This document shows, one piece after another, positions 3,316 to 15,773 of a stretch of 64,000 nucleotides of DNA. The position numbers were made by a program, and so were the translations under genes. The DNA lies in contig DJVI01000009.1 of NCBI GenBank assembly GCA_002441125.1, forward strand, positions 8,175-72,174, written 5' to 3'. Each line of letters starts with the position of its first letter. The first letter of the stretch is position 1. The notes below the pieces were generated by a model that did not search any database, was not told the origin of the DNA, and saw only the letters and a program-made list of their open reading frames with translations. Source of the stretch: a candidate division WOR-3 bacterium UBA6260 (GTDB lineage: Bacteria; Hydrothermota; 32-111).

Positions 3316-4641
3316 TTACTTTTTAATCTTTTTCACAAAATTTTTCAAAACATCTTCAAGATTCGGTCTTCCTATTTCCTGAAGATCATAACCAACTCTT
3401 ACTGATGGTTTGTTTATTTTCACAAGTCTACCAAGATTTATAGGTGTAGCAATAACTATTGTATCACATGGTATCTTGTTTATTGTTTTTTCAAGGTCTG
3501 AGATCTGTTTTTTAGAATAACCCATAGCTGGAAGGATAGGTCCCGCTTCAGAATATTTTTCGTATGTTTCTTTTATTTCACCGACAGCGTATGGATGTGG
3601 ATCTATTATCTCTTTTGCTCCAAACCTTTTTGCTGCAACTACTCCAGCACCATATTTCATTTCACCATGTGTGAGTGTTGGTCCATCCTCAACTACAGCT
3701 ACTCTTTTTCCCTTTATTAGTTCTGGCTTTTCAACTGAGACAGGTGATGCTGCCTCTATAACTGTCGCTTTTGGATTTACCTTTGCAATACTTTCTCTAA
3801 CTATCTCGACATTTTCAGGTTTCGCTGAATCTATTTTGTTTATAACTATTACATCTGCAAGTCTAATGTTTACACAACCAGGATAGTATGTTAACTCATG
3901 TCCCGGTCTATGTGGATCGGCAACAGTTATAACAAGATCAGGTTTATAGAATGGGAAATCATTGTTTCCACCATCCCAAAGAATTATATCAGCTTCCTTT
4001 TCAGCCTGTCTTATTATATCCTCATAATCAACACCAGCATAAACAACTGTTCCATTATTTATATGTGGTTCATACTCTTCCATCTCTTCTATTGTACAGT
4101 TATGTTTTTTAAGATCTTCTATTGAAGCAAACCTCTGAACTCTTTGCTTTTCAAGGTCTCCATAAGGCATAGGATGCCTTATAGCAACGAGTTTGTAACC
4201 CATATTTCTGAGAATTGAAGAGACAGCCCTTGTTGTCTGTGATTTTCCAGAACCTGTTCTAACCGCAACTATAGATACAACTGGTTTTGTTGATTTTATG
4301 TATGTTTGTTCTGGACCAAGAAGCATATAACTTGCACCAGCAGCCATAGCCTCTGCACCTTTTGACATAACATATTGATTTGAAACATCAGAATAAGAGA
4401 AAACAACAAGATCGACCTTCTTCTCTTTTATTATTTTTGCCATATCCTTTTCATCATAGATTGGAATACCTTTTTTATAAAGTTTTCCAGCGAGTGATGG
4501 TGGATACAATCTTCCCTCTATATCTGGGATCTGTGTAGCAGTAAAACCAACAACCTCATATTCTTCATTATTTCTAAAATAAACATTAAAATTATGGAAA
4601 TCTCTCCCTGCAGCACCTAAAATCAAAACTCTCTTTTTCAT
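3316..4641 (-). CDS. COG2403-family predicted GTPase (cyclic 2,3-diphosphoglycerate synthetase-like)
   Basis: 441 aa. P-loop-like AVRTGSGKSQTT. Size and composition resemble the cDPGS/'predicted GTPase' family. The family assignment comes from memory of the motif layout and was not searched. Confidence 0.45.
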   Translation of the reverse strand: MKKRVLILGAAGRDFHNFNVYFRNNEEYEVVGFTATQIPDIEGRLYPPSLAGKLYKKGIPIYDEKDMAKIIKEKKVDLVVFSYSDVSNQYVMSKGAEAMAAGASYMLLGPEQTYIKSTKPVVSIVAVRTGSGKSQTTRAVSSILRNMGYKLVAIRHPMPYGDLEKQRVQRFASIEDLKKHNCTIEEMEEYEPHINNGTVVYAGVDYEDIIRQAEKEADIILWDGGNNDFPFYKPDLVITVADPHRPGHELTYYPGCVNIRLADVIVINKIDSAKPENVEIVRESIAKVNPKATVIEAASPVSVEKPELIKGKRVAVVEDGPTLTHGEMKYGAGVVAAKRFGAKEIIDPHPYAVGEIKETYEKYSEAGPILPAMGYSKKQISDLEKTINKIPCDTIVIATPINLGRLVKINKPSVRVGYDLQEIGRPNLEDVLKNFVKKIKK

Positions 4642-4732
4642 AACTAAACCTCCTAAAATTAAAACTATTTTTTACTTATAATAAAAAAAATAAGTTAACA
4701 TAATAAAATATTGTTGTCAATAGGTAAAATTT

Positions 4733-5758
4733 CTATTGTTTTTTTATGATCAGGTTCAAAAATGGATAAAAGAATCCTTCACTAATTTTTGGGTATATAG
4801 ATCTTAAAACATTTAAATATCTCCGCTCAACTGAAAATGGAACCAAAAATTGTTTCAAATATGAAACTACCTTTATTTTTTCAACTTTACTGTTTAAAGC
4901 AATTTCAAACTCATGAAAACTCACCCCTCTTCCCCTTCTTAAAAAATGAAGGAATTTCTCATCTGAAAATTCTTTGTATAGTTCTCTGAAATTACTTCTT
5001 TCACTGAATTTAGTATAATCGAACGCCAACCTATCAGGTAGCCAGTTGAAAAATGGTAGCAAAGATGTGTGTTCATCAAAATACCATAATCTGTTTGGAG
5101 CTTCAACAACAATTAAGAAAGAACCATTTGAAAGTATCGAAAAATATTTTTTAATTGATTCTATCCTTTCTTCATACAACATATGCTCTAAAGATGCGTA
5201 AAAAATTATCACATCAAATTTTTTTTCTTTAACTTTTTCAAAAAGTTCTAAACAGTTGCCAGATAAAAAATCAGCTTCAAGCCCATAAATTTTCATTCTC
5301 TCTTTTGCTATATTTAAACTACTCTCATCTATATCTATTCCTGTAACAAAAGCACCCTGTTCTGTTAAAGCAACAGTTGATGAACCTGTTCCACATCCAA
5401 TCTCAAGTATATTTGAGTTTTTAAGTTTAACAGTTTTATTTATCCAAGGTATATAATGGTATCTATTTTCAAAAAGCCTAAGATAGAGTTGAGTTTTTAA
5501 ATCATTTTCAAAAACTTTTTTAGAAAAATTATCTTTTCCTCTCCAACCTTTGAAAAATTCTTCTTCAAGAAGTCTTTTAAATTTCTCCAATTTTTCTTCA
5601 TCAACATTTCTAAAATTCTCTTTAAGTTTTTTGGGAAGAGTTTCTTTTTCAATTTTTTTATAAACTCTGTTAAAAAATCTTTTCATAAAAACCCTATTAA
5701 ATTTTTTAAACGAATACTCCCAAAAAGTCAAGACTTTTTTTAAATGGAAACCTTTCAA
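4733..5758 (-). CDS. class I SAM-dependent methyltransferase
   Basis: 341 aa. Motif I LEIGCGTGSST followed by acidic motif II (GIDIDE). Confidence 0.6.
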   Translation of the reverse strand: MKGFHLKKVLTFWEYSFKKFNRVFMKRFFNRVYKKIEKETLPKKLKENFRNVDEEKLEKFKRLLEEEFFKGWRGKDNFSKKVFENDLKTQLYLRLFENRYHYIPWINKTVKLKNSNILEIGCGTGSSTVALTEQGAFVTGIDIDESSLNIAKERMKIYGLEADFLSGNCLELFEKVKEKKFDVIIFYASLEHMLYEERIESIKKYFSILSNGSFLIVVEAPNRLWYFDEHTSLLPFFNWLPDRLAFDYTKFSERSNFRELYKEFSDEKFLHFLRRGRGVSFHEFEIALNSKVEKIKVVSYLKQFLVPFSVERRYLNVLRSIYPKISEGFFYPFLNLIIKKQ

Positions 5759-5938
5759 ATTTTAAAAATTTATGATTAAAACTTTTTGTATTAATGGCAA
5801 ACAGAGTTTCCAAAAATCATTTCAAAAAACATCCTTTTTAAACTTACTTCTAATCGTTGCGATAATCTAATGGCTATTCATAGTTTTTTATTTCTTTAAA
5901 AAATCATCAATAAAGGGAAAAAAGTAATATTTTTTTCT

Positions 5939-5976
5939 TCAAAAATGTCACACTGTCAAGCACCGTCCCCAATATT
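5939..5976. repeat. 38-bp direct repeat, left copy (tcaaaaatgtcacactgtcaagcaccgtccccaatatt); overlaps the 3' end of the KAP NTPase gene
   Basis: Identical by inspection to 15946-15983. It encodes the KAP protein's last residues NIGDGA plus the stop codon on the minus strand. Confidence 0.85.
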
Positions 5977-7944
5977 TGAATTTGAAATACCGTTACCAAT
6001 ATTGGAATTATTTACTATTTCCTTAAGTTTATTTAAACTATTTGTAATATCCTCTTTGAGATATTCATCAAAATTTTCTTTTTCCATTTCCATTTTATCA
6101 TTTACTTTAGCTAAAATATTTTGAAAAATATCTTTGACTTTTGCTTTATCATAATTACTAATAACATTAATCAAAATCTCTTCCAATAAAAGATCTCTTA
6201 TACTTAAACGAGATCCTTCTTTTACAAGTCGAAGATTATTTAAATAATGTTCTTTGATTTCATTTTTAAAGTTATCAAAATCTTTATTAAAAAATTCTAA
6301 AATTTCATTTATTGACTTAAATTTTTTTTTATTTATTTCTAAAAGATTTTCTTTTAAACCTAAATATAAATTCAGATTATATATTCTAAATAATCTTTTG
6401 AATAAAATAAATTGAACTACTTTTTTTTCGTTTTTTTTCATACCCTTAATAGTATTTTCAAATATGTCTTTAAAATCCAATTTTTCTTTAAATATTTCTC
6501 TAATAAAATTTATAATCATATTTTCTTGTTCTTCTTCATTATTTTTATAATTTATTTTAAAATAAATTAAAAACAATATAAGTTCCATTACACTTTTAAT
6601 CTCAACAATATTTTTATTAAGTAATAATTCTACTTTTTCAATAAAATTGTTTACTTTAGTTTTTTCGTCCTTATCACTTGACTGACCTAATATCTTATCC
6701 GAAATTTGTTCATTATTCTCTTTAAGGTTAATTAAATTTATATCTAATTGATGGATAAATAAAATCCTTTGGGTCATTAAATGTTCCCATATTAAAGGAT
6801 GCTTAAATTTTAACCATTCAATTAGGATAATATCTAACAAAAAAATATTCTCTGCTATTTCTTTTCTACCTTTTATTATTTGTTTCACATTTTCTGTTAA
6901 CATAATAACATCTCTAAAATCATCAAAATCAAAAATACTCGTTGATGTTAAGATATTGTTTAATAAAGCCAATATCAATTCTTTTTGAGAATCGTCATTA
7001 GATAAATGTTCATCAATTATTTCTATTTTTATTTTTTCTTGAAAAAAATCTCTCAAAATTTCAATAGGATTAACAAGTTCTATTTTATAATCGAATGTTT
7101 TATTTAAATAACCACTTATTAAATATTCCTTTTCAAAAATATTCATTAAAGCATTTCTATCAATAGTTGTTATAAGGTAAAAATTTGGAATCCTGCTAAA
7201 GCAGTTTATAAATTTAAATATCTCCAAAATTGTTTCACTATCTATTAATCTATCTAATTCATCTAATATTAGTATAAATTTTTTAGATTTAATATTTTTC
7301 TTAATATGATTTTTAAAATGGTTTAATCTATTTTCAAAATTTATAAGATCATCAATGTAAAATTTAAAACCACTAACTGTTACATCATAGTTTCTAAATA
7401 TATTTTCCCAATAACAATACCTAAATTTTAATCCTAAAAATTTTATAAGATTGTAATATATCTGCTCAGAAGAATAAAAACTTATTAAATTAAGATAAAC
7501 AATTTCTATTTCTTTATCTTTTTTACTTCCATTACTTTTTTTACAAAATGTTTTTTGAAAATATTTTAATAGAGTTGACTTACCTGTTCCCCATTTCCCT
7601 ACTACAGCAATTGTTGCATTATTAATCTCCACATTTTCAATAATACTCTTTAATTCTTCACAATTCTTTTTGATATTATATGCAGGTTCATCTATATTAC
7701 TCAAATGAGTATTTTTAATTTCATCATCTGAATATTGTACATTATTGAAAAATGTATCTCTCAAATACAAGATAAAAATAGAAATAATCAATAACAGTAA
7801 TGGTAAAATTATATTTAACAAATTTAGAAAATAATTGTAAAAAAGTTTAATTTTGAAAATTAATAACAAAATTAATAGAAAAAAGATTATTAAACCTATT
7901 CTATTTATAAACTTTTCTTTATTTGAATTAAACCACATCGACAA
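5956..7944 (-). CDS. KAP-family P-loop NTPase with N-terminal transmembrane helices
   Basis: 662 aa. Walker A AVVGKWGTGKST and Walker B ILILDELDRL, in the KAP NTPase arrangement. Two strongly hydrophobic N-terminal segments. Very AT- and Lys/Asn-rich. Confidence 0.65.
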   Translation of the reverse strand: MSMWFNSNKEKFINRIGLIIFFLLILLLIFKIKLFYNYFLNLLNIILPLLLLIISIFILYLRDTFFNNVQYSDDEIKNTHLSNIDEPAYNIKKNCEELKSIIENVEINNATIAVVGKWGTGKSTLLKYFQKTFCKKSNGSKKDKEIEIVYLNLISFYSSEQIYYNLIKFLGLKFRYCYWENIFRNYDVTVSGFKFYIDDLINFENRLNHFKNHIKKNIKSKKFILILDELDRLIDSETILEIFKFINCFSRIPNFYLITTIDRNALMNIFEKEYLISGYLNKTFDYKIELVNPIEILRDFFQEKIKIEIIDEHLSNDDSQKELILALLNNILTSTSIFDFDDFRDVIMLTENVKQIIKGRKEIAENIFLLDIILIEWLKFKHPLIWEHLMTQRILFIHQLDINLINLKENNEQISDKILGQSSDKDEKTKVNNFIEKVELLLNKNIVEIKSVMELILFLIYFKINYKNNEEEQENMIINFIREIFKEKLDFKDIFENTIKGMKKNEKKVVQFILFKRLFRIYNLNLYLGLKENLLEINKKKFKSINEILEFFNKDFDNFKNEIKEHYLNNLRLVKEGSRLSIRDLLLEEILINVISNYDKAKVKDIFQNILAKVNDKMEMEKENFDEYLKEDITNSLNKLKEIVNNSNIGNGISNSNIGDGA

Positions 7945-8266
7945 TTTTTATCTTATTTTAAGGAACCAATCTTTGAAATTTAAAAACTTTATTCCTAACT
8001 TCATTCCCTTTATACTTTTTTAAAATTATAAACAATAAAATTACTAAATCAAGCAAAAATTTTAAGTCAATTTACTTGTTTTGAATAACCTACATTGAAA
8101 TAAGTGATGGTATATTTATCTATAAAACTTAAAATAATCATAATAAAAATCATTTAAACATAGTAAAGTAAAAGGTCTTTATCTAACATTACATTAAGTC
8201 CTATAATTAAAAATATCCTTTTCTCAATAATATCTTATTTTATAACAGTTTTTGCAATTTTTATTT

Positions 8267-8365
8267 CTCATTCCCTTCCACTATTTTTATTTCTTCCTCA
8301 GTCAAACCATATAATTTATAAACCATCTGGTCAATCTGGCGTTCGTATTCTTTGACTTTGGCCTG
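8267..8365 (-). pseudogene. Duplicated ~100-bp fragment: 3' end of the MmeI-family methyltransferase gene plus the ATGA start/stop junction (non-functional remnant)
   Basis: About 90% identical by eye to 9292-9395. Translates on the minus strand to ...QAKVKEYERQIDQMVYKLYGLTEEEIKIVEGNEK*, against GLTDEEIKIVEGRQ* in the intact gene. It retains the overlapping ATG but continues into a 15-codon junk ORF. Confidence 0.7.
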
Positions 8366-8372
8366 GCAAATT

Positions 8373-9296
8373 TTAAAATAATGACAATTCCCCTTGTCCA
8401 GATTTTTCCTCAACATATTTTAAATTTCTATTAGTATAAAACTGGTTCCTATATCTTTTTGGGTCGCCAATATCTGTTTTTTCTTTTGGGAAAAATCTAA
8501 CCATTATTCTCTTATTATAAGAACTATTTTTCGTATTATCAATTAGTTCAATGAGTAATGGCAAATAACAATCAGCAAGTTCTTCTCTATATTTTGATTT
8601 TTTACTCTTTTCAATACCATGAATAATACTTGTTGTTACACCGAGAACACAATCACATAATTGTATTAGGTTGGAACGTCTGTCTACTTTATGGTCTTTT
8701 GGAAGAAAAGTTATTTCTTTACAATTGAAGAATATATCTTCTTGTTCACTTATTTTGTAAATACAGTGCCAAGGGAAATATTTGTGTTGTTTTTGTTGTC
8801 CATCCTCGTGATAAATATTCTCAACAATAATTTTTTTATTCCCAAAAAATGTTTTTATGGCATATAATAATGCTGACCGAAAAAAACGATTGTATTTACT
8901 ATTGAAGTCATTATTCTGGTCAAACTCTTCTTTTGAAAGGTATGAGTTATTTAATCCAAGAATATATGAATAAAATTTCTTTTGACTTTTATCAGGGTTT
9001 AAAATATACTCAAACCATCTTCTACATATATTTTTTTCATCTGCACTTGCAATTTCTGACCAATGCATAATATGGTTGTTTTTCACATAATAAGGAGAAT
9101 TTATATCAAAATTGCCCTTAAATCGTTCCTGAATAATATCATCAAGTAAAGGATTGTCAATATCTTCAACAATCAACCCTATGTAATGCCATTCATTCCC
9201 AGTATATGAACAAAATTTGGATTGGATTTCATCGGCATAAATATTAATTGTAACAGGATTTTCTTTTATTTCATTACCAAATAAATCCTTGCTCAT
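8373..9296 (-). CDS. hypothetical protein (possibly DUF3800-like), translationally coupled to the methyltransferase
   Basis: 307 aa. Its start ATG overlaps the methyltransferase stop TGA (ATGA). An N-terminal INIYADE motif is loosely similar to the DUF3800 'iyiDES' signature. No other recognisable motif. Confidence 0.5.
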   Translation of the reverse strand: MSKDLFGNEIKENPVTINIYADEIQSKFCSYTGNEWHYIGLIVEDIDNPLLDDIIQERFKGNFDINSPYYVKNNHIMHWSEIASADEKNICRRWFEYILNPDKSQKKFYSYILGLNNSYLSKEEFDQNNDFNSKYNRFFRSALLYAIKTFFGNKKIIVENIYHEDGQQKQHKYFPWHCIYKISEQEDIFFNCKEITFLPKDHKVDRRSNLIQLCDCVLGVTTSIIHGIEKSKKSKYREELADCYLPLLIELIDNTKNSSYNKRIMVRFFPKEKTDIGDPKRYRNQFYTNRNLKYVEEKSGQGELSLF

Positions 9297-12200
9297 TGTC
9301 TCCCTTCCACTATTTTTATTTCCTCATCAGTCAAACCATATAATTTATAAACCATCTGGTCAATCTGGCGTTCGTATTCTTTAACTTTGGCCTGCTTTTC
9401 TTTGTTCTGCAAATAATCATCGTCTTTTGTTATTTCAAGAATTTTATCTACGATGTCAATAAAGGGTTGTTGGTCAATTTTTTCTAGTTCAACTATTGGT
9501 AAAGAATATAAAGCATAAATCCTAAACTGCGCAAGGGTTCGGTTTTTCTGACCGTATAAACCATTTTGATATAAAAAAGACAATAGTTTAGATGAAAACA
9601 AAGCTAATAGTAGTTTTATATTTATATAATTCATTTTGGATTTTACAACATATAAATTTTGATGAGCAATTGCAAAATCATATTTCACGGGTGGGACACA
9701 TAATATTGTATCTCCTGTTTTTCTAATAAAAATTCTTTCACCATTATGTAAATTATAATCATATTTTTGGCATTGTTTTTTTGGTAGATAAACTATTTTT
9801 GCGTAACAGTATCTGTTTAATAGATCATCTCTGATTATAGGTAAAACATTTTTTGATTTTTTGTAAAAAATTTTAGAAAAATTATTATCTAATGAATGTT
9901 CACCTTCCGATATTTTACAATATTCTTTCATTTTTTTGAGGACGTTTAAATAAATCTTTTTTGCTAAATGATTTTTATAAAAACAAATATTCCCATTAAT
10001 ATATTCAACCTTGACTAATTCCTCATTTATAATGTCTCTAAGTATATATTTTCTTATTAAGTCACGTTCTATCATTTTTATATCCGAATAATTTACATAT
10101 TTATTTTCAGACTTTAATTTTTGTGAAATAAATATTGCCGTGGCAACAATTGGTTCTTCAAAAATATTGAAACCTAAATCTACTATAATAATATTATGGA
10201 ATTTATTAATAATTATATCCCGTATATCAGCATATTTAGATAGTGTAATATATGTGTTTGGAGTAATATATGTTATTATTCCTTTTTCCTTTATAATTTG
10301 AGTCCCAAGTTGTATAAACCATTTATATAAATCCTTACATCCTTTTGAGGATTCTGGAAATCTTTTTGTTATATCCGCCAATTCTTTTTCTAATAATTCT
10401 GCTTCCTTTCTTTTTCCTTTTCTTATTAATTCTTTTACAGGACTACCTTTCCCACTTAGAAATTTATACGGAGGATTTGCAATGACAATATCAAACCCAT
10501 TTTTTTCGCGAAATACTTCAGAAAAATAAATATGAAAGTCAAATTCTATATTTCCAATAGTATGGTCTATTGTTCTTAAAAATTTTAGTTGTTCGATAAA
10601 TAATTTTTGAATCTCATCTCTAATTTTAACTTTTTCCATTAAGGATGTAGTAGAAAATAAAAGTTTTTTCTTCTCTTCTATTCTTTCGTTAATATTATTA
10701 TTTGGTAGAATATTTTCTGGTAAACCTAAAAGTGAATTTCCGCATACAAGTTTGTAATCCAGGTTTGGCAAAGGTTTTATTTTTGTAACATCATCTTCGT
10801 CAACTATTAGAGAAAGCCAGAACCTGAGTTTAGCAATATCTATTGCTGATGAATCAATATCTACGCCATAAATACAGTTTTCAATGCAATGACGTTTGAA
10901 ATTATATGATGTTCGTCCCTCTTGGTTAGATAAAAAATTTGTTAAAATATTTCTTGCCTTTACAATTTCCAGCATCATTCCAACAGGAAAGGCGCCTGAA
11001 CCAACGGCAGGATCGCAAACACGGATGTTTTCTAATTTTTCATCTATAAGTTTAGCATTATTCTTTATACTTTCAGGCATCTTAATCTTTTTATATTTCC
11101 CATTATATTCCGGGTTTTCTTCTATCCTTGCAATGACAAGTTTATCGTGTTCAATTGTTATATCTCCGTATTTAATAAGTATTTCAATATCTTCTTTTTT
11201 CACCTTGCCTTCACATTCTGTTGCTAAATAATTTATCAAACTCTCCTGGCACATATAATGAACAATCTCACGAGGAGTATAATATGCCCCCTGACCTTTT
11301 CGCAAGTTCTCTTCAATCAGGTTTTCAAAAACTTTACCAAGTAATTCAGGATCAAGAGCGACCTCTTTTTCAAGTGGCTCATCTTCTTGCACAGTAAAAT
11401 TATACCTATCAAAAACATCAAGAATGCCAGTGCCTATATCTCCTTCTTTCGTTTTTTCATTATTAGAGAACAATTCATTAGGAATAATTAAATCTTTTTT
11501 TTGCCAGTCGTAGTTGTTTACTGGTTCAAAAAGACCACCATTTAAAAATGGGATTTTACAATCAAAATAGTTTGAATATGTTGAATCTGCCTGATTTGTT
11601 CTTGGATTATTTAATGTGTTATAAAACAATACTTCAAGATAATCATTAAAGAAATTTTTCTTTTCTTCACTGCACTTTTTAAATAATGAACGCAGAAAAT
11701 TCCTGTCCCCTTCTCCCCAGTTTTTATCTTTTGGAACACCAAGCCAACCCTTCTTTTGTAAAAAATAGAGGAAGACTATTTGACCTAAAAGTTTTTTGGA
11801 AAAGTCTGATGTTTTTATCTTTTTATTTTCAAATTCTTCTTTAACATTATTATCATTTTTAACAATTGTTTCAATGGTATTATTTAATTTCTGATATAGG
11901 CTAAGGTATTGACTAAGAAATTCTTTTGTAATTTTTTCAACACTAAACGCTTTTTCAAGTTGTTCTAATGTGGGATTATTTACATCATCTTGTAAAATAG
12001 GGAGTAATTGTTGTTGAGCAGTATGATTGGGCTCATTTTTGCCTACCAGAAAAGAATATCTACGAGCAGGTGTAAACTCTTCTTCTCCTTTTGGCTTGCC
12101 TGATTTTGTTTGTGTTAATTTGTATTCCTTTTTAACCAGAGAAAAACGCCAATCGTCAAGTTCTGGTGAAACAAAAGCAACAACAGCAGCATCTTTTTCT

Positions 12201-12517
12201 TTAACAGAACCATATTTACCAGCAAGATAACCTGCAATAAAATTTCGTTGCATTGTCCTGGCACGTTCAATTGAAGTTTCTTTTTTTAAGTAAACTATTA
12301 AAATATCAATTCTTTTGTCTTCTGATACATATTTGCCAACTCGTTCGTATTTGTTAATATATGGCTCATATGTATCTGGTATGTATTGTCCATGATATTC
12401 AAACGGTTCCAAAGAAATTTTATTAAATAAGTTCTTTACAAAATAGACAAATCTTTCCTTTTCAAAAGAGTTTTCAAATGTTTCTCTTATCAATTTTATA
12501 GCAGATTTTTTATCCAT
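9293..12517 (-). CDS. MmeI/PglX-family gamma-class N6-adenine DNA methyltransferase (Type IIG/IIL-like), with N-terminal MmeI-like domain and C-terminal target-recognition region
   Basis: 1074 aa. Motif X GAYYTPREIV, motif I DPAVGSGAFPVG, motif IV VIANPPYKF. Stretches resemble MmeI by recall (RNFIAGY, LFYNTLNNP...IPFLNGGLFEP). C-terminal ...LYGLTDEEIKIVEG helix. GAAGG RBS 8 nt upstream, inside the helicase 3' end. Confidence 0.8.
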   Translation of the reverse strand: MDKKSAIKLIRETFENSFEKERFVYFVKNLFNKISLEPFEYHGQYIPDTYEPYINKYERVGKYVSEDKRIDILIVYLKKETSIERARTMQRNFIAGYLAGKYGSVKEKDAAVVAFVSPELDDWRFSLVKKEYKLTQTKSGKPKGEEEFTPARRYSFLVGKNEPNHTAQQQLLPILQDDVNNPTLEQLEKAFSVEKITKEFLSQYLSLYQKLNNTIETIVKNDNNVKEEFENKKIKTSDFSKKLLGQIVFLYFLQKKGWLGVPKDKNWGEGDRNFLRSLFKKCSEEKKNFFNDYLEVLFYNTLNNPRTNQADSTYSNYFDCKIPFLNGGLFEPVNNYDWQKKDLIIPNELFSNNEKTKEGDIGTGILDVFDRYNFTVQEDEPLEKEVALDPELLGKVFENLIEENLRKGQGAYYTPREIVHYMCQESLINYLATECEGKVKKEDIEILIKYGDITIEHDKLVIARIEENPEYNGKYKKIKMPESIKNNAKLIDEKLENIRVCDPAVGSGAFPVGMMLEIVKARNILTNFLSNQEGRTSYNFKRHCIENCIYGVDIDSSAIDIAKLRFWLSLIVDEDDVTKIKPLPNLDYKLVCGNSLLGLPENILPNNNINERIEEKKKLLFSTTSLMEKVKIRDEIQKLFIEQLKFLRTIDHTIGNIEFDFHIYFSEVFREKNGFDIVIANPPYKFLSGKGSPVKELIRKGKRKEAELLEKELADITKRFPESSKGCKDLYKWFIQLGTQIIKEKGIITYITPNTYITLSKYADIRDIIINKFHNIIIVDLGFNIFEEPIVATAIFISQKLKSENKYVNYSDIKMIERDLIRKYILRDIINEELVKVEYINGNICFYKNHLAKKIYLNVLKKMKEYCKISEGEHSLDNNFSKIFYKKSKNVLPIIRDDLLNRYCYAKIVYLPKKQCQKYDYNLHNGERIFIRKTGDTILCVPPVKYDFAIAHQNLYVVKSKMNYINIKLLLALFSSKLLSFLYQNGLYGQKNRTLAQFRIYALYSLPIVELEKIDQQPFIDIVDKILEITKDDDYLQNKEKQAKVKEYERQIDQMVYKLYGLTDEEIKIVEGRQ

Positions 12518-12520
12518 AAA

Positions 12521-15500
12521 TTAGCCTTCTTTAATAAGGTATTCAGAAAGTATAACTTCTCTCGGACCAGATGTCTGCCCTGGTAACTCAGAGCTTGGTG
12601 TTTTAAAAAATGTTTCAGGAATATTCTTCTTTATTATTCCATATATTTTTAAGTAATTGTTTTCTTTTCCAATTTTTTTTATTATATTTTTAACTGTTTG
12701 TTTAGGTATAACTCCTTCTTCAAGTAGAATTAGAACTTTGTTTAAATACTCTTCATCATCTTCAGTAAAACCTTTCATTTTTGATATTGCCTTTATTAAA
12801 ATCTTTAATCTTACATCACTACTTTTACCACCTTTGGTTTTAACTTCTTGAATATCTTCAACTAATGATGACTTAAAAGCATCTTTGTTCTTGTCTAAGT
12901 AGTCATAATATTTCTGACCTATTTTTTCTCGTTTAGTATCTTTGTTTGATTTCAATATTTCTGCTGTTTGAAAGAAATCCAATTCTTTTGTTGATTCTGC
13001 GTTACTAATAAACATTTTTCTTAATTTACCTTTTCTAAAAAAAGTTATTACAGATTCTTTATCAACAGAATGAATTTTAGCACTTCGTGCTTTTTTAGGT
13101 AAGCGTTTTATTTTTTCAAATAAGTCAGGATTATTGTCCCTGATATTTCTGAGTTCAGAAAGGTATTTAAGTTCGGACTCTTCTGATTCCTCACCTTCAA
13201 TAACTTCTTTAGAATTTAACCTTTTGAAAAGTTCAAATGAATTGACCTCTTCCCCTTCAGTTAAATAAGATGCATCTTCACCAAGAATATTGTGGAAAGC
13301 CTGCAATTTTCCAATAGCTGCTTCTTCTAATTTTATTTCTTCATTTGATTGGACTGTCGGAAAGAAATTATAAATAAAAATTTTATCAAACTGTGTATCT
13401 ACTCTGTTTATACGACCTACTCTTTGAATTATACGAACAGGATTCCAAGGAATATCATAATTTATAATAACATTGGAACGATGAAGATTAACTCCTTCAG
13501 AAAGAATATCTGTGGTAATTAAAATTTTTATATCGTCTTTTGGCTTACTGCTTTTTGGATCAAAATTTTCAATTATTTTTTCCTTTATAGGAGCACCTGA
13601 TTTGCTGGAAAATGATATAACAGCGTCTTTATACATACTCTTTAAATTCTTTTCAAGATATTCCGCTGTTTCCATTGATTCGGTAAAAACAATTATCTTA
13701 TTTTCTTTCAATATTTTATCTGTTGATAGTTTATGTATAAACTCATTGATTTTAGGGTCTGTTGTTATATCTTCCCAAAGCGTTTTTATTTCTTTTAAAA
13801 TTTTTAAGTCATTGTTCAGGTCTTCAATAAATTCTGGTCTAAATTCATTTATTTTATATTTTCTAACTTTTTCTTCTTCAATCAATTTCATTATTTCATC
13901 AATATTGTCATTTTCTAAAAGGTCAAATATTTTATTGGTATATTTTTTACTGATGTAAATAGTTCCTTTATCGAACATATTGATAAATTGCTCATAAGAA
14001 TATATAAATCTATCAAGTGTATTTTTAAACGCAAAAAAACTGCTTTCAAGCCTTTTGACAAGCAACACCTTCATAAATACTTTTAAATTTTTCTGTCCAA
14101 TTTCCTCCTCTTGGATAGGATTTTCTAAATATAAGAGCGGTGTATATCTGGAATACTTAAATAGTTTTATTTTATTTATTGTTTCATTAAAAATAAAATC
14201 TGTCTTTTCATCAAATTTATAATATAGTCTTTTAGGTGTCTTTACATCGGGGAACTTTAACCCTTTTTTTGTCAGGTCTTTACTGAAATACTTTTTTATA
14301 TCTTCTCTTGTTCTGCGAACTATAAGATATTTCAGGACATCTTCCCTTATCTTTTTTGAATTATCTTTCATGATTTTTATATATTTATCGAATTCTTTTA
14401 ATCGGTCTATTCCTTTTAGTCGTTTTTGCAATGTATTAAAATATTTTTCCAGATTTTTTATATTAGGAATTGTGCTATTTCTTCCTTTTTGAAATAGTTT
14501 TATCTGACTTAATATATCATTTGGAGTATTGTTCTGCGGTGTAGCTGAAATCAAAATTACCCTTTTCCCCCAGCATATCTGTTTTAATTTTTCATAAGTT
14601 TGCGTTGACTCATTACGAAACCTGTGTGCTTCATCTATAAAAACATTTTTGTATTCTCTTTTTTTTGTTATTTCAATTATATCATCTAACTTCCCTAACG
14701 ACTCTACAATAACTGGAACATGAAAATCCTGAAATGTGCTTTCCCAATAATCTTTAAGGATTGGTGGACAGATAACTAAATTACGACCATCTAACTGTTG
14801 TGCCAGCATTGCAGAAATATATGTCTTACCAAGACCTACTACATCTGACAGGAATACACCGCCATATTCTTCTAATTTATTTTTAGCATCACTTACTGCT
14901 TCCCGTTGATATTCAAAATTCATAAAACCGTGCGGAACATCAGGTGTGTTTATTTCCTCTTGATCAATATTTATTGTTTCCTTAAAATATTCATACAAAT
15001 ATTTTAAGTAGAGTTCGTAAGGAGTTATACTCTCATTAACCCATGTTCTGGTCTTGATTGTTTCAATATATTCCTGCGAGATATCCACTGAATTCTCCCA
15101 CAATTTGTTAAATGCAGTGATAGCAAATTCATAATCAGACGGGTTTTTTAGTTCAACATTAAATTCTAAGTTTTCTTTAAGACCAGCCTTAGTAAAGTTG
15201 CTCGAACCTGTAATAACTCTTCCTATATCTCTATCATTCTCTTTAAAAGTCATGATATAAAGTTTTGAATGTATATTTTCAGTAGGATATGCTTTAATCT
15301 CTATTTTCCCCTTTTGTACCCATTCAACGAATTTTGACACACCTTCTTCAACATTATGATTATCATCCGAATACTCCATTTCTTTTATAATGGAGCCATT
15401 AATTTTTTCTTTAACTTCAGAATAAGAATAGTAGAGGTTTAGTTGTTCATTTAATCTTGCTTTTTCAATATTTTCCATAGTTTCCTTATCAGTACATATT

Positions 15501-15679
15501 CCAACTAAGATCCTTATTTTTTCAGTATTCTCTAAAGATTTATAAAGTTCATAAAAACCGCTCATATAAAAATACCCAACCAAGACATCAAAATAACGAG
15601 TATCTTTTATAAGTAATTTGAATCTTTCAAGAAGGCTTTTATCTTTTTCGTTGGTAATAAATGTTAAATCTGAATCCAT
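12521..15679 (-). CDS. PLD-family (HKD) nuclease domain fused to SNF2/DEAH-box superfamily-2 helicase
   Basis: 1052 aa. N-terminal PLD motif IHSKLYI...GSSNFT. Helicase motif I GLGKTYIS, motif II VFIDEAHRFRN, motif III ILISATPQN, motifs V/VI ...TDILSEGVNL...QRVGRINR. Only 3 nt separate its stop from the methyltransferase start. Confidence 0.8.
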   Translation of the reverse strand: MDSDLTFITNEKDKSLLERFKLLIKDTRYFDVLVGYFYMSGFYELYKSLENTEKIRILVGICTDKETMENIEKARLNEQLNLYYSYSEVKEKINGSIIKEMEYSDDNHNVEEGVSKFVEWVQKGKIEIKAYPTENIHSKLYIMTFKENDRDIGRVITGSSNFTKAGLKENLEFNVELKNPSDYEFAITAFNKLWENSVDISQEYIETIKTRTWVNESITPYELYLKYLYEYFKETINIDQEEINTPDVPHGFMNFEYQREAVSDAKNKLEEYGGVFLSDVVGLGKTYISAMLAQQLDGRNLVICPPILKDYWESTFQDFHVPVIVESLGKLDDIIEITKKREYKNVFIDEAHRFRNESTQTYEKLKQICWGKRVILISATPQNNTPNDILSQIKLFQKGRNSTIPNIKNLEKYFNTLQKRLKGIDRLKEFDKYIKIMKDNSKKIREDVLKYLIVRRTREDIKKYFSKDLTKKGLKFPDVKTPKRLYYKFDEKTDFIFNETINKIKLFKYSRYTPLLYLENPIQEEEIGQKNLKVFMKVLLVKRLESSFFAFKNTLDRFIYSYEQFINMFDKGTIYISKKYTNKIFDLLENDNIDEIMKLIEEEKVRKYKINEFRPEFIEDLNNDLKILKEIKTLWEDITTDPKINEFIHKLSTDKILKENKIIVFTESMETAEYLEKNLKSMYKDAVISFSSKSGAPIKEKIIENFDPKSSKPKDDIKILITTDILSEGVNLHRSNVIINYDIPWNPVRIIQRVGRINRVDTQFDKIFIYNFFPTVQSNEEIKLEEAAIGKLQAFHNILGEDASYLTEGEEVNSFELFKRLNSKEVIEGEESEESELKYLSELRNIRDNNPDLFEKIKRLPKKARSAKIHSVDKESVITFFRKGKLRKMFISNAESTKELDFFQTAEILKSNKDTKREKIGQKYYDYLDKNKDAFKSSLVEDIQEVKTKGGKSSDVRLKILIKAISKMKGFTEDDEEYLNKVLILLEEGVIPKQTVKNIIKKIGKENNYLKIYGIIKKNIPETFFKTPSSELPGQTSGPREVILSEYLIKEG

Positions 15680-15744: not shown

Positions 15745-15773
15745 ATTATAAATCACAATTATTTTATTGTCAA
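15745..15773 (-). promoter_or_regulatory. Candidate sigma70-type promoter for the helicase-methyltransferase operon
   Basis: Minus-strand TTGACA (15768-15773), 17-nt spacer, TATAAT (15745-15750), about 65 nt upstream of the helicase ATG at 15679. Confidence 0.4.

What the first reader, a model, noticed from the sequence alone, without database searches (positions are those of the whole stretch)
8373..9296. Unknown 307-aa protein embedded in the RM-like operon, translationally coupled to the methyltransferase
The start codon overlaps the methyltransferase stop (ATGA), which implies co-translation with the methyltransferase and helicase. There are no nuclease, helicase or DNA-binding motifs I can recognise. 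The only hint is the N-terminal INIYADE, loosely like the DUF3800 'iyiDES' motif, and DUF3800 proteins are frequent defense-island passengers. It could be an effector, an anti-restriction control factor or an abortive-infection component.
Basis: partly seen in the sequence, partly recalled or inferred. Interest (0 to 1): 0.5.

Follow-up and report, generated by a model that had tools for sequence, protein, structure and literature searches.

The report
DUF3800 nuclease cassette behind a methyltransferase
The unknown 307-residue protein is a divergent member of the DUF3800 family of predicted RNase H-like nucleases, and it sits on a 1-kb gene cassette that recombined into the tail of a restriction-type methyltransferase gene, so it is an add-on to that system rather than a core part.

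Summary
The ORF is real. It lies at window 8373-9296 on the minus strand, encodes 307 aa, and its ATG overlaps the methyltransferase (MT) stop as ATGA. It has about 300 homologues.

Direct Pfam, PADLOC and NCBIfam scans find nothing. Four other lines place it in DUF3800. A profile-profile comparison with a bona fide DUF3800 protein gives 96.9% probability. Pfam DUF3800 matches 29 of 73 distant relatives. The AlphaFold model (pLDDT 90.5) is closest to RNase HII/HIII and to a phage DUF3800 model. The DE...H(D/E)...QxxD signature is essentially invariant. It is therefore a predicted metal-dependent nuclease. Its biochemical function has not been tested.

It is not a core subunit. The PLD-SNF2 helicase plus Eco57I-like MT pair occurs without it in 7 of 7 sampled homologous loci, and it co-diverges only weakly with that pair. 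It also occurs next to RmuC, HerA, UvrD and Type ISP genes.

The gene is bracketed by a 94-nt direct repeat (97% identical) that duplicates the last ~31 codons of the MT. The same bracketing recurs in many phyla and also around other defence genes at this position. The MT 3' tail is therefore a recombination hot spot that stacks cassettes. The mechanism is probably homology-driven and is not resolved.

The parts
8373..9296 (-). Gene X. It encodes a 307-aa divergent DUF3800 protein with an RNase H2-like fold and is a predicted nuclease. Candidate catalytic residues are D22, E23, E164 (D in most relatives) and D215, together with H163, D201, H202 and Q212.
9301..9394 (-). R_up, the upstream copy of the 94-nt direct repeat. 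It is the functional 3' tail of the MT gene (codons for QAKVKEYERQIDQMVYKLYGLTDEEIKIVEG). It carries the Shine-Dalgarno-like GGGAG for X and abuts the ATGA overlap.
8261..8365 (-). R_down, the downstream copy of the repeat (8272-8365), read on to its own in-frame stop at 8261-8263 (...LTEEEIKIVEGNEK*). It is an orphan relic of an MT tail and starts 8 nt after the stop of X.
9293..12517 (-). 1074-aa Eco57I-type (type IIG-like) N6-adenine DNA methyltransferase with a TaqI_C-like specificity region. Its TRD region differs between sister strains that are 98-99% identical elsewhere.
   Evidence: Pfam and PADLOC. TRD swaps.
12521..15679 (-). 1052-aa PLD(HKD) nuclease-like domain fused to an SNF2 helicase. 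It is the conserved partner of the MT.
   Evidence: Pairing conserved. Co-divergence with the MT: Spearman 0.80.
15745..15773 (-). Consensus sigma-70-type promoter-like site (TTGACA-17-TATAAT, 12 of 12) upstream of the helicase start. It is the likely promoter of the helicase-MT-X transcription unit.
   Evidence: This is a consensus match only. No terminator-like site was found between the MT and X or just after X.

Best explanation
Gene X encodes a divergent DUF3800-family protein with a type-2-RNase-H-like fold and an intact acidic active-site set (D22-E23, H163-E164, Q212xxD215). It is most likely a divalent-metal-dependent nuclease acting on nucleic acid. An RNA/DNA hybrid or a structured nucleic acid is the best guess for the substrate, and that guess is inference. 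X is not a core subunit of the restriction-like module. That module is the two-gene pair of PLD-SNF2 helicase and Eco57I-type methyltransferase. X is an accessory defence-type cassette of about 1 kb that entered by recombination at the conserved 3' tail of the MT gene (R). The functional tail R_up was left fused to the MT and an orphan tail R_down was left behind X. Because R_up carries the ribosome-binding site and the MT stop overlaps the X start, X is co-transcribed with the helicase and MT and translationally coupled to the MT. In the cell it would act as an extra nuclease layer expressed together with the restriction module. Shown here: family and fold, conserved residues, operon junction, repeat bracketing, and the accessory status. 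Inferred: nuclease activity, substrate, a defence role, and homology-driven insertion.
Against: No biochemical or genetic data exist for any DUF3800 protein, so the nuclease activity, the substrate and a defence role are all inferred. X itself does not reach any Pfam, PADLOC or NCBIfam threshold. About 19 of 26 X loci with enough upstream sequence do have an Eco57I-type MT just upstream. That association is also what a genuine functional dependence on the MT would produce, so 'accessory and independent' is not proven. The co-divergence test rests on only 9 loci. I could not superpose the model on RNase HII to confirm the geometry of the acidic residues.
Confidence: 0.55

Rival explanations
1. 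X is an obligate third subunit (effector or sensor) of a three-gene helicase-MT-X restriction system. It is made in fixed ratio with the MT through translational coupling and acts only in complex with the other two proteins.
For: The ATGA overlap and the tight helicase-MT-X spacing. The same order helicase-MT-X is found in many phyla. X directly follows an Eco57I-type MT in roughly 19 of 26 informative loci. Stop/start overlap or gaps of 22 nt or less recur in other loci.
Against: The helicase-MT pair is complete without X in 7 of 7 sampled homologous loci. Other genes (UvrD, SMC-like, radical SAM, Shedu, Mrr, a 204-aa gene) are often interposed between the MT and X. X occurs with unrelated neighbours. 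X is phylogenetically incongruent with the pair: for example L001 and L017 have helicases 62% identical but X only 52% identical. In the 99%-identical sister strain L032 the MT has its own stop 190 nt upstream and X is no longer coupled to it.
Confidence: 0.15
2. X is a selfish, self-mobilising gene. It would be a homing-type nuclease or RNase-H-fold recombinase that cuts or recombines the conserved MT tail sequence R and so copies itself, with duplication of R, into MT genes of unrelated bacteria.
For: X is the only gene inside the repeat unit (1029 nt in the window, 1088 nt in L001). R-X-R recurs in independent phyla. On the X side the junction is fixed, with R_down starting 1-34 nt after the X stop, while the truncation point within the MT tail varies. 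That pattern is expected from independent insertions of an element with a defined end. X is 59-66% identical across phyla whereas its neighbours are 25-55% identical. RNase H-fold enzymes include transposases and integrases.
Against: R-bracketed cassettes exist with no X in the locus: L069 has three R copies and two cassettes, and L063 and L065 have one cassette each. So R duplication does not need X in cis. Synonymous-site identity in R is barely above the rest of the MT (0.455 against 0.43), so there is no sign of a DNA-level recognition site. The fold is closest to RNase HII rather than to DDE or RuvC recombinases. No copies were found in the plasmid or phage collections. X has the same base composition as its host. 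No empty-site and filled-site pair was found.
Confidence: 0.12
3. X is a stand-alone single-gene defence or abortive-infection nuclease that works independently of the helicase and MT and is simply parked in a defence-island hot spot.
For: X occurs next to RmuC, HerA, UvrD, DUF2779 and Type ISP genes without the helicase-MT pair. No conserved partner gene lies downstream. The flanking genes are typical defence genes, including KAP/PifA-like NTPase, SIR2, TIR, SLFN/AlbA and Shedu. Canonical DUF3800 is PADLOC candidate PDC-M04A.
Against: This overlaps largely with the best explanation and differs only in denying any functional link to the MT. The strong bias for the position immediately after an Eco57I-type MT, and the recurrent stop/start overlap, could still reflect functional coupling.
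Confidence: 0.15
4. X is a housekeeping RNase H-type enzyme or a transcriptional or anti-restriction control protein of the operon.
For: The RNase HII-like fold and a position inside an RM-type operon, where control proteins are sometimes encoded.
Against: No match to RNase HII/HIII sequence families. The distribution is patchy, at about 300 clusters among billions of proteins, and all loci seen are in variable regions. No helix-turn-helix or other DNA-binding domain was detected.
Confidence: 0.03

Closest known systems
DUF3800 (Pfam PF12686), including PADLOC candidate PDC-M04A
   Same: The N-terminal beta-strand DE motif and the C-terminal QxxD motif are both present. The fold is RNase H2-like. 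The profile-profile match is 96.9% probability, Pfam hits occur in 29 of 73 relatives, and the best viral structural hit is a DUF3800 protein. Its setting in defence islands matches too. A canonical DUF3800 (PDC-M04A) lies 1.7 kb downstream of the X homologue in L001.
   Different: X is about 309 aa against about 220 aa for canonical members. It has an insertion around residues 60-105 and an extra C-terminal region of about 80 aa with an invariant FFP motif. X itself is below every Pfam and PADLOC threshold. It has no conserved small partner gene. Its characteristic position directly behind an Eco57I-type MT has not been described, as far as my literature searches show.
DUF3800 accessory proteins of retron type VII and of CRISPR V-A2, Cas12a3 and VI-F loci (TPR-DUF3800)
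   Same: [quoted passage not shown] A UvrD helicase sometimes accompanies it, both in the Cas12a2 loci (PMC10910872) and here in L008 and L020.
   Different: Here the host module is a restriction-type helicase-MT pair, with no RT, Cas or TPR. No associated structured RNA was found (Rfam scans), whereas 11 ncRNA motifs are reported near other DUF3800 genes (PMC5737381).
Type 2 RNase H (RNase HII, HIII, H2A)
   Different: Sequence identity is only 9-16% and there is no hit to RNase HII sequence models. H163, D201/H202 and Q212 are conserved in addition. The third carboxylate is E in X and D in most relatives. Substrate recognition elements were not examined.
PrrC anticodon nuclease inside the EcoprrI type Ic restriction-modification operon (from my own knowledge, not tested here)
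   Same: It is an accessory nuclease gene lodged in and co-expressed with a restriction-modification operon. It offers a precedent for a second-line effector held together with an RM system.
   Different: PrrC is an ABC-ATPase/HEPN-type RNase unrelated to DUF3800. No evidence here shows that X is regulated by the MT or helicase.
Tandem integrative elements that duplicate the 3' end of a target gene (tRNA-gene islands, SCC elements at the rlmH tail) and integron cassette arrays (from my own knowledge)
   Same: Arrays of cassettes are separated by direct repeats of the 3' end of one host gene, with n cassettes and n+1 repeats.
   Different: No integrase or recombinase gene lies in or beside the cassettes. 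The cassettes are single genes of about 1 kb. The repeat shows no extra DNA-level conservation. The relic boundaries vary.

Membership tests
DUF3800 (PF12686) | Match to the Pfam HMM at or above its threshold | tested here: not met
   X gives no Pfam hit at E<=0.1. However, 29 of 73 distant relatives of X match PF12686, best E 2.1e-6, and P0172 scores 22.9 bits against a cut-off of 21.
DUF3800 (PF12686) | Homology to a bona fide member by profile comparison | tested here: met
   hhalign of the 73-sequence family profile against the PF12686 protein L001:12615-13286 gives probability 96.9%, E 2e-10, over 189 columns covering both motifs. That protein is identified as PF12686.
DUF3800 (PF12686) | N-terminal DE motif and C-terminal QxxD motif (as described in PMC7736814) | tested here: met
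   D22 is present in 73 of 73 relatives, E23 in 72 of 73, Q212 in 73 of 73 and D215 in 73 of 73.
DUF3800 (PF12686) | RNase H2-like fold | tested here: met
Type 2 RNase H (RNase HII/HIII) | Sequence-family membership (RNase_HII models) | tested here: not met
   No Pfam or NCBIfam hit. A PDB profile search found only spurious hits.
Type 2 RNase H (RNase HII/HIII) | DEDD carboxylates superposable on the RNase HII active site | tested here: inconclusive
   The order and secondary-structure positions fit: D22-E23 in strand 15-28, E164 at the end of strand 156-164, D215 in helix 208-226. No residue-level superposition was available.
Type 2 RNase H (RNase HII/HIII) | Cleavage of RNA/DNA hybrids or single ribonucleotides | not testable with these tools
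   This needs a biochemical assay.
Class 1 DISARM (for the host module) | DrmA (YprA helicase) and DrmB (DUF1998) together with DrmD and DrmMI | tested here: not met
   The helicase and MT give only partial DrmD and DrmMI matches, far below the NCBIfam cut-offs (141 against 610 bits). No DrmA or DrmB gene lies in the neighbourhood.
Type IIG-like restriction-modification (for the MT) | Match to type IIG REase-MTase models, with Eco57I, N6_Mtase and TaqI_C domains | tested here: met
   PADLOC REase_MTase_IIG PDLC03596 E 2e-251. Pfam Eco57I 1e-27 and N6_Mtase 6e-11; TaqI_C 21.1 bits is below its cut-off of 26.5. Endonuclease activity of the N-terminal region was not assessed.
Integron-like or site-specific cassette system (for the R-bracketed arrays) | A recombination site conserved at DNA level beyond coding constraint, and an adjacent site-specific recombinase | tested here: not met
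   Codon identity at identical-residue sites is 0.455 in R against 0.428-0.433 elsewhere in the MT. No integrase, recombinase or invertase domain was found in the window operon neighbours or in the cassettes examined.

The most novel reading that the evidence does not exclude
The 3' tail of Eco57I-type methyltransferase genes (R) is the attachment site of a previously undescribed cassette-capture mechanism that stacks single defence genes behind PLD-SNF2/MT restriction modules, giving arrays of the form MT-R-gene-R-gene-R. The DUF3800-like protein X, the most conserved and most widely spread cassette, would be an active player in this process: an RNase-H-fold nuclease or recombinase that nicks or recombines R and so mobilises itself, and possibly other cassettes in trans. 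That would give DUF3800 its first function and define a new kind of minimal mobile element.
Probability: 0.12. Interest if true: 0.8.

Novelty: new member of a known kind. Interest (0 to 1): 0.45.

Why it matters
DUF3800 is a widespread domain with no experimentally determined function. It keeps turning up as an accessory of immune systems, including retron type VII and CRISPR V-A2, Cas12a3 and VI-F. This locus adds a restriction-type helicase-methyltransferase module to that list. It also defines a compact, well-modelled subfamily of about 309 aa that would be convenient for biochemistry. The repeat bracketing matters separately. It shows how defence genes can be stacked behind a methyltransferase by recombination at its conserved tail, and it gives a simple sequence signature, orphan MT tails, for finding such hot spots and their cargo in metagenomes. 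If the nuclease itself drives this recombination, that would be a new mobile-element type. My evidence leans against that reading.

Tried and rejected
- Direct scans of X against Pfam, PADLOC, NCBIfam and PHROGs found nothing useful.
- A profile search of PDB sequences gave only spurious low-complexity hits to interferon gamma and designed repeat proteins.
- The afdb50 fold library was unavailable.
- Rfam scans of the window, of the X flanks and of 15 related loci found only two tRNAs far from X and none of the DUF3800-associated RNA motifs.
- tblastn of X against the plasmid and phage collections found no match.
- Base composition is no evidence of recent foreign origin: X is 27.9% GC, like the helicase and MT.
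- I considered R as a site-specific att-like site. This is disfavoured, because synonymous-site identity in R is not meaningfully raised and the relic boundaries vary.
- I considered X as the cis-acting agent of R duplication. This is disfavoured, because R-bracketed cassettes occur in loci without X.
- The tandem X copies in L005 looked like a possible circular or tandem form. The scaffold contains 100 N and the junction lacks R, so it may be an assembly artefact.
- P0261 looked like a transposase-X fusion (DUF772 plus X-like). It lacks the DE motif of X, so it is probably an IS-disrupted chimera.
- I looked for an empty-site allele among close relatives (L032, L066, L067, L068). All of them carry X.

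Full report
**1. Observation**

The ORF is real. It lies at window 8373..9296 on the minus strand, starts with ATG and encodes 307 aa. Read on the minus strand, the junction with the upstream gene is ...GTGGAAGGGAGACAATGAGC. The ATG of the ORF (9296-9294) overlaps the TGA of the upstream gene (9295-9293), and a GGGAG lies 3 nt before the ATG.

The upstream gene (9293..12517, 1074 aa) is an Eco57I/N6_Mtase/TaqI_C methyltransferase (MT). It matches a PADLOC type IIG model at E 2e-251. The gene before it (12521..15679, 1052 aa) is a PLD(HKD)-SNF2 helicase (HEL). A perfect TTGACA-17-TATAAT promoter-like site precedes HEL. No terminator-like site lies around the ORF.

The surrounding window is a bacterial chromosome with housekeeping genes, including MurJ, ACPS, NDK and thiamin pyrophosphokinase, plus a T9SS sorting domain. 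A 96%-identical protein is attributed by UniRef to a candidate division WOR-3 bacterium. I call the 307-aa protein X.

**2. What X is**

X gives no hit in Pfam, PADLOC, NCBIfam or PHROGs. It does belong to a family: 292 proteins match at E<=0.01, almost all about 309 aa and annotated 'hypothetical'. They come from very diverse phyla, including Bacteroidota, Ignavibacteria, Planctomycetota, KSB1, WOR-3, Cloacimonadota, Omnitrophota, Saccharibacteria and a Nanoarchaeota MAG. A profile search of 1.8 billion representatives found 321 clusters.

A profile of 73 distant relatives aligns to a genuine PF12686 protein (L001:12615-13286) with 96.9% probability. 29 of those 73 relatives hit PF12686 directly.

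The two motifs reported to define DUF3800 are an N-terminal DE and a C-terminal QxxD (PMC7736814). Both are invariant here. D22, Q212 and D215 are present in 73 of 73 relatives and E23 in 72 of 73. Position 164 is D or E in 69 of 73 and H163 is present in 70 of 73. The secondary-structure positions match the D-E-D-D order of RNase HII: strand 1, the end of a later strand, and a helix.

The statement that there are no nuclease motifs is wrong. X is a predicted metal-dependent RNase-H-fold nuclease.

No DUF3800 protein has an experimentally determined function. The literature knows the family as an RNase H-like accessory of type VII retrons and of CRISPR V-A2, Cas12a3 and VI-F loci, and as a neighbour of 11 orphan RNA motifs (PMC7736814, PMC10910872, PMC12669027, PMC13594972, PMC5737381). 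I found no such RNA near X.

**3. Core component or add-on?**

X homologues often follow a HEL-MT pair. About 19 of 26 loci with enough upstream sequence have an Eco57I-type MT just upstream. Four observations argue against X being a core subunit.

- (a) I sampled seven MT homologues, 45-55% identical to the window MT, on long contigs. All seven have the HEL-MT pair and none has X.
- (b) HEL and MT co-diverge strongly (Spearman 0.80, Mantel p 0.001). X correlates weakly (0.45 with MT, 0.36 with HEL). There are clear incongruences: L001 and L017 have HEL 62% identical but X only 52% identical, while L003 and L006 have HEL 32% identical but X 64% identical (n=9 loci).
- (c) X also occurs right after RmuC (two loci), a HerA pair, DUF2779, UvrD and a Type ISP enzyme.
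- (d) Other defence-type genes are often interposed between the MT and X. These are UvrD, an SMC-like ATPase, a radical SAM protein, Shedu SduA, Mrr and a 204-aa protein.

**4. The repeat**

The gene is bracketed by a 94-nt direct repeat, 97% identical, at 9301-9394 and 8272-8365. The upstream copy (R_up) is the last ~31 codons of the MT (...QAKVKEYERQIDQMVYKLYGLTDEEIKIVEG). The downstream copy (R_down) starts 8 nt after the X stop. It still reads ...LTEEEIKIVEGNEK* but belongs to no gene.

This is not peculiar to the window. Complete genome CP129490.1 (L001) has a 148-155-nt repeat, 86-89% identical, in the same arrangement. Among 40 non-redundant loci with full-length X, an R-like copy lies directly upstream in 18 of 37, directly downstream in 9 of 37 and on both sides in 7 of 35. 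All 73 R-like hits in 738 kb are on the MT strand and none lies elsewhere.

Arrays exist. L008 has MT-R-[UvrD]-R-X-R. L007 has MT-R-[SMC-like]-R-X-R. L006 has MT-R-[204 aa]-R-X. L036 has X-R-[two genes]-R. Some orphan copies carry in-frame stops, so they are decaying relics and not functional elements.

Loci without X show the same pattern. L069 has MT-R-[four genes]-R-[two genes]-R-[nSTAND6 gene]. L063 has MT-R-[SLFN/AlbA]-R. L065 has MT-R-[HEAT]-R. So 3 of 7 loci without X show R-bracketed cassettes. The duplication is therefore a property of the position, the MT tail, and not of X.

Three sister strains with HEL 98-99% identical carry three different MT specificity regions: WIN and L066, then L032, then L067 and L068. 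The right-hand recombination junction falls at the start of R in L032 and inside R in L067. In L032 the new MT brings its own stop, leaving R_up-X-R_down as orphan-flanked cargo.

Codon identity at identical-residue sites is 0.455 in R against 0.43 in the rest of the MT. The relic truncation point varies between loci, while the X-side junction stays within 1-34 nt of the X stop.

My reading is that the conserved MT tail serves as a homology arm for recombinational exchange of specificity regions and downstream cargo. Cassettes therefore pile up behind the MT, each leaving an orphan tail. How the first duplication arises is unresolved. Possibilities are a circular intermediate with a single crossover, or one homologous and one illegitimate junction.

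**5. Mechanism proposed**

X is transcribed with HEL and MT from the promoter upstream of HEL. It is translated by coupling to the MT, because the ribosome-binding site and the stop/start overlap lie inside R_up. It acts as an extra nuclease layer alongside the restriction module.

Shown: fold and family, conserved carboxylates, operon junction, cassette structure and accessory status. Inferred: catalytic activity, substrate, antiviral role and homology-driven insertion.

The rivals are an obligate third subunit, a self-mobilising nuclease that targets R, a fully independent single-gene defence, and a housekeeping or regulatory role. They are weighed in the structured fields.

**6. Comparison and novelty**

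X passes three of four DUF3800 membership tests and fails only the direct Pfam threshold. It is best filed as a divergent, longer subfamily of DUF3800. UniRef already labels a near-identical protein as such. It is not a member of the RNase HII sequence family.

The host module is a type IIG-like MT plus a PLD-SNF2 helicase. The same pairing was noted in a survey of programmed inversions (PMC9881135). It is not DISARM, because DrmA and DrmB are absent.

The association of this DUF3800 subfamily with that module, and the orphan-tail cassette arrays, were not found in my literature searches. Those searches cover open-access papers only.

**7. Verdict**

This is a real gene, and its family is known but functionally uncharacterised. 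Interest is moderate. The protein adds a tractable member and a new context to an open DUF3800 question. The repeat-delimited stacking of defence genes behind an MT is a neat, checkable evolutionary observation. Nothing here is yet surprising enough to overturn current views.

Noticed in passing
L069:11016-15457; L063:11073-12760; L065:11094-11806: Loci with the helicase-MT pair but without X also carry orphan copies of the MT tail separating downstream genes. L069 has three copies delimiting an SMC_N-containing block and a 165+59-aa block ahead of an nSTAND6 gene. In L069 each cassette gene starts about 5 nt after a tail copy.
   Followed up: partly
window 9464-10729 (MT residues ~597-1018), compared with L032:8281-9834 and L067:4579-5929: Sister strains that are 98-99% identical elsewhere carry three unrelated MT specificity (TRD) regions. 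The left junction lies just after the catalytic region and the right junction at or inside the tail repeat. In L032 the swapped-in segment has its own stop, so the old tail became an orphan.
   Followed up: partly
L005:1-3449: A JGI scaffold shows a 1433-nt unit containing the X homologue (identical to L003:9987-11426) twice in tandem. It contains a 100-N gap, and the junction lacks an MT-tail repeat. This could be a real tandem duplication or an assembly artefact.
   Followed up: partly
L016:660-782 and L018:1-81: In two loci X is preceded not by an MT tail but by a shared GC-rich region with two strong hairpins (RNA fold -47 kcal/mol, z -2.9). An MT-tail copy follows X. Rfam gives no match. 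It might be a REP-like element, a terminator or an unknown RNA.
   Followed up: partly
proteins P0272 and P0288 (MT homologues): Two close homologues of the N-terminal half of the MT (81-85% identical over 50% of the query) carry a precomputed PF01797 (IS200-like Y1 transposase) hit in place of the usual C-terminal region.
   Followed up: no
protein P0261 (567 aa): A DUF772 transposase N-terminal domain is followed by an X-like region that matches X residues 29-308 and so lacks the DE motif. It is probably an IS-disrupted or mis-called chimera and not a real fusion.
   Followed up: partly
window 3316-7944 (minus strand): Downstream of the cassette lie three genes: a 662-aa KAP/AAA_22 NTPase with a weak PifA match, a 341-aa SAM methyltransferase matching MADS mad2 (E 3e-21), and a 441-aa P-loop GTPase-like protein. 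Together with the helicase-MT-X operon they form a defence-island-like block of about 12 kb between housekeeping genes.
   Followed up: partly
L001:11206-13785: In complete genome CP129490.1 the X homologue and its orphan tail are followed by a SIR2-like gene and then a canonical 223-aa DUF3800 gene (PADLOC PDC-M04A, E 8e-83) with a 165-aa partner. Two different DUF3800 branches therefore sit 1.7 kb apart.
   Followed up: partly
L046:5697-8020 and L048:2778-5380: In two unrelated contigs the X homologue lies directly downstream of rmuC (RmuC family, E 1e-75 and 1e-99), with no MT or tail repeat nearby.
   Followed up: no
L063:7186-7995 and L006:4534-5889: Extra genes are also inserted between the helicase and the MT: YhcG/DUF1016 in L063 and SLFN_AlbA_2 in L006. 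The helicase-MT junction is therefore a second variable position in this module.
   Followed up: no
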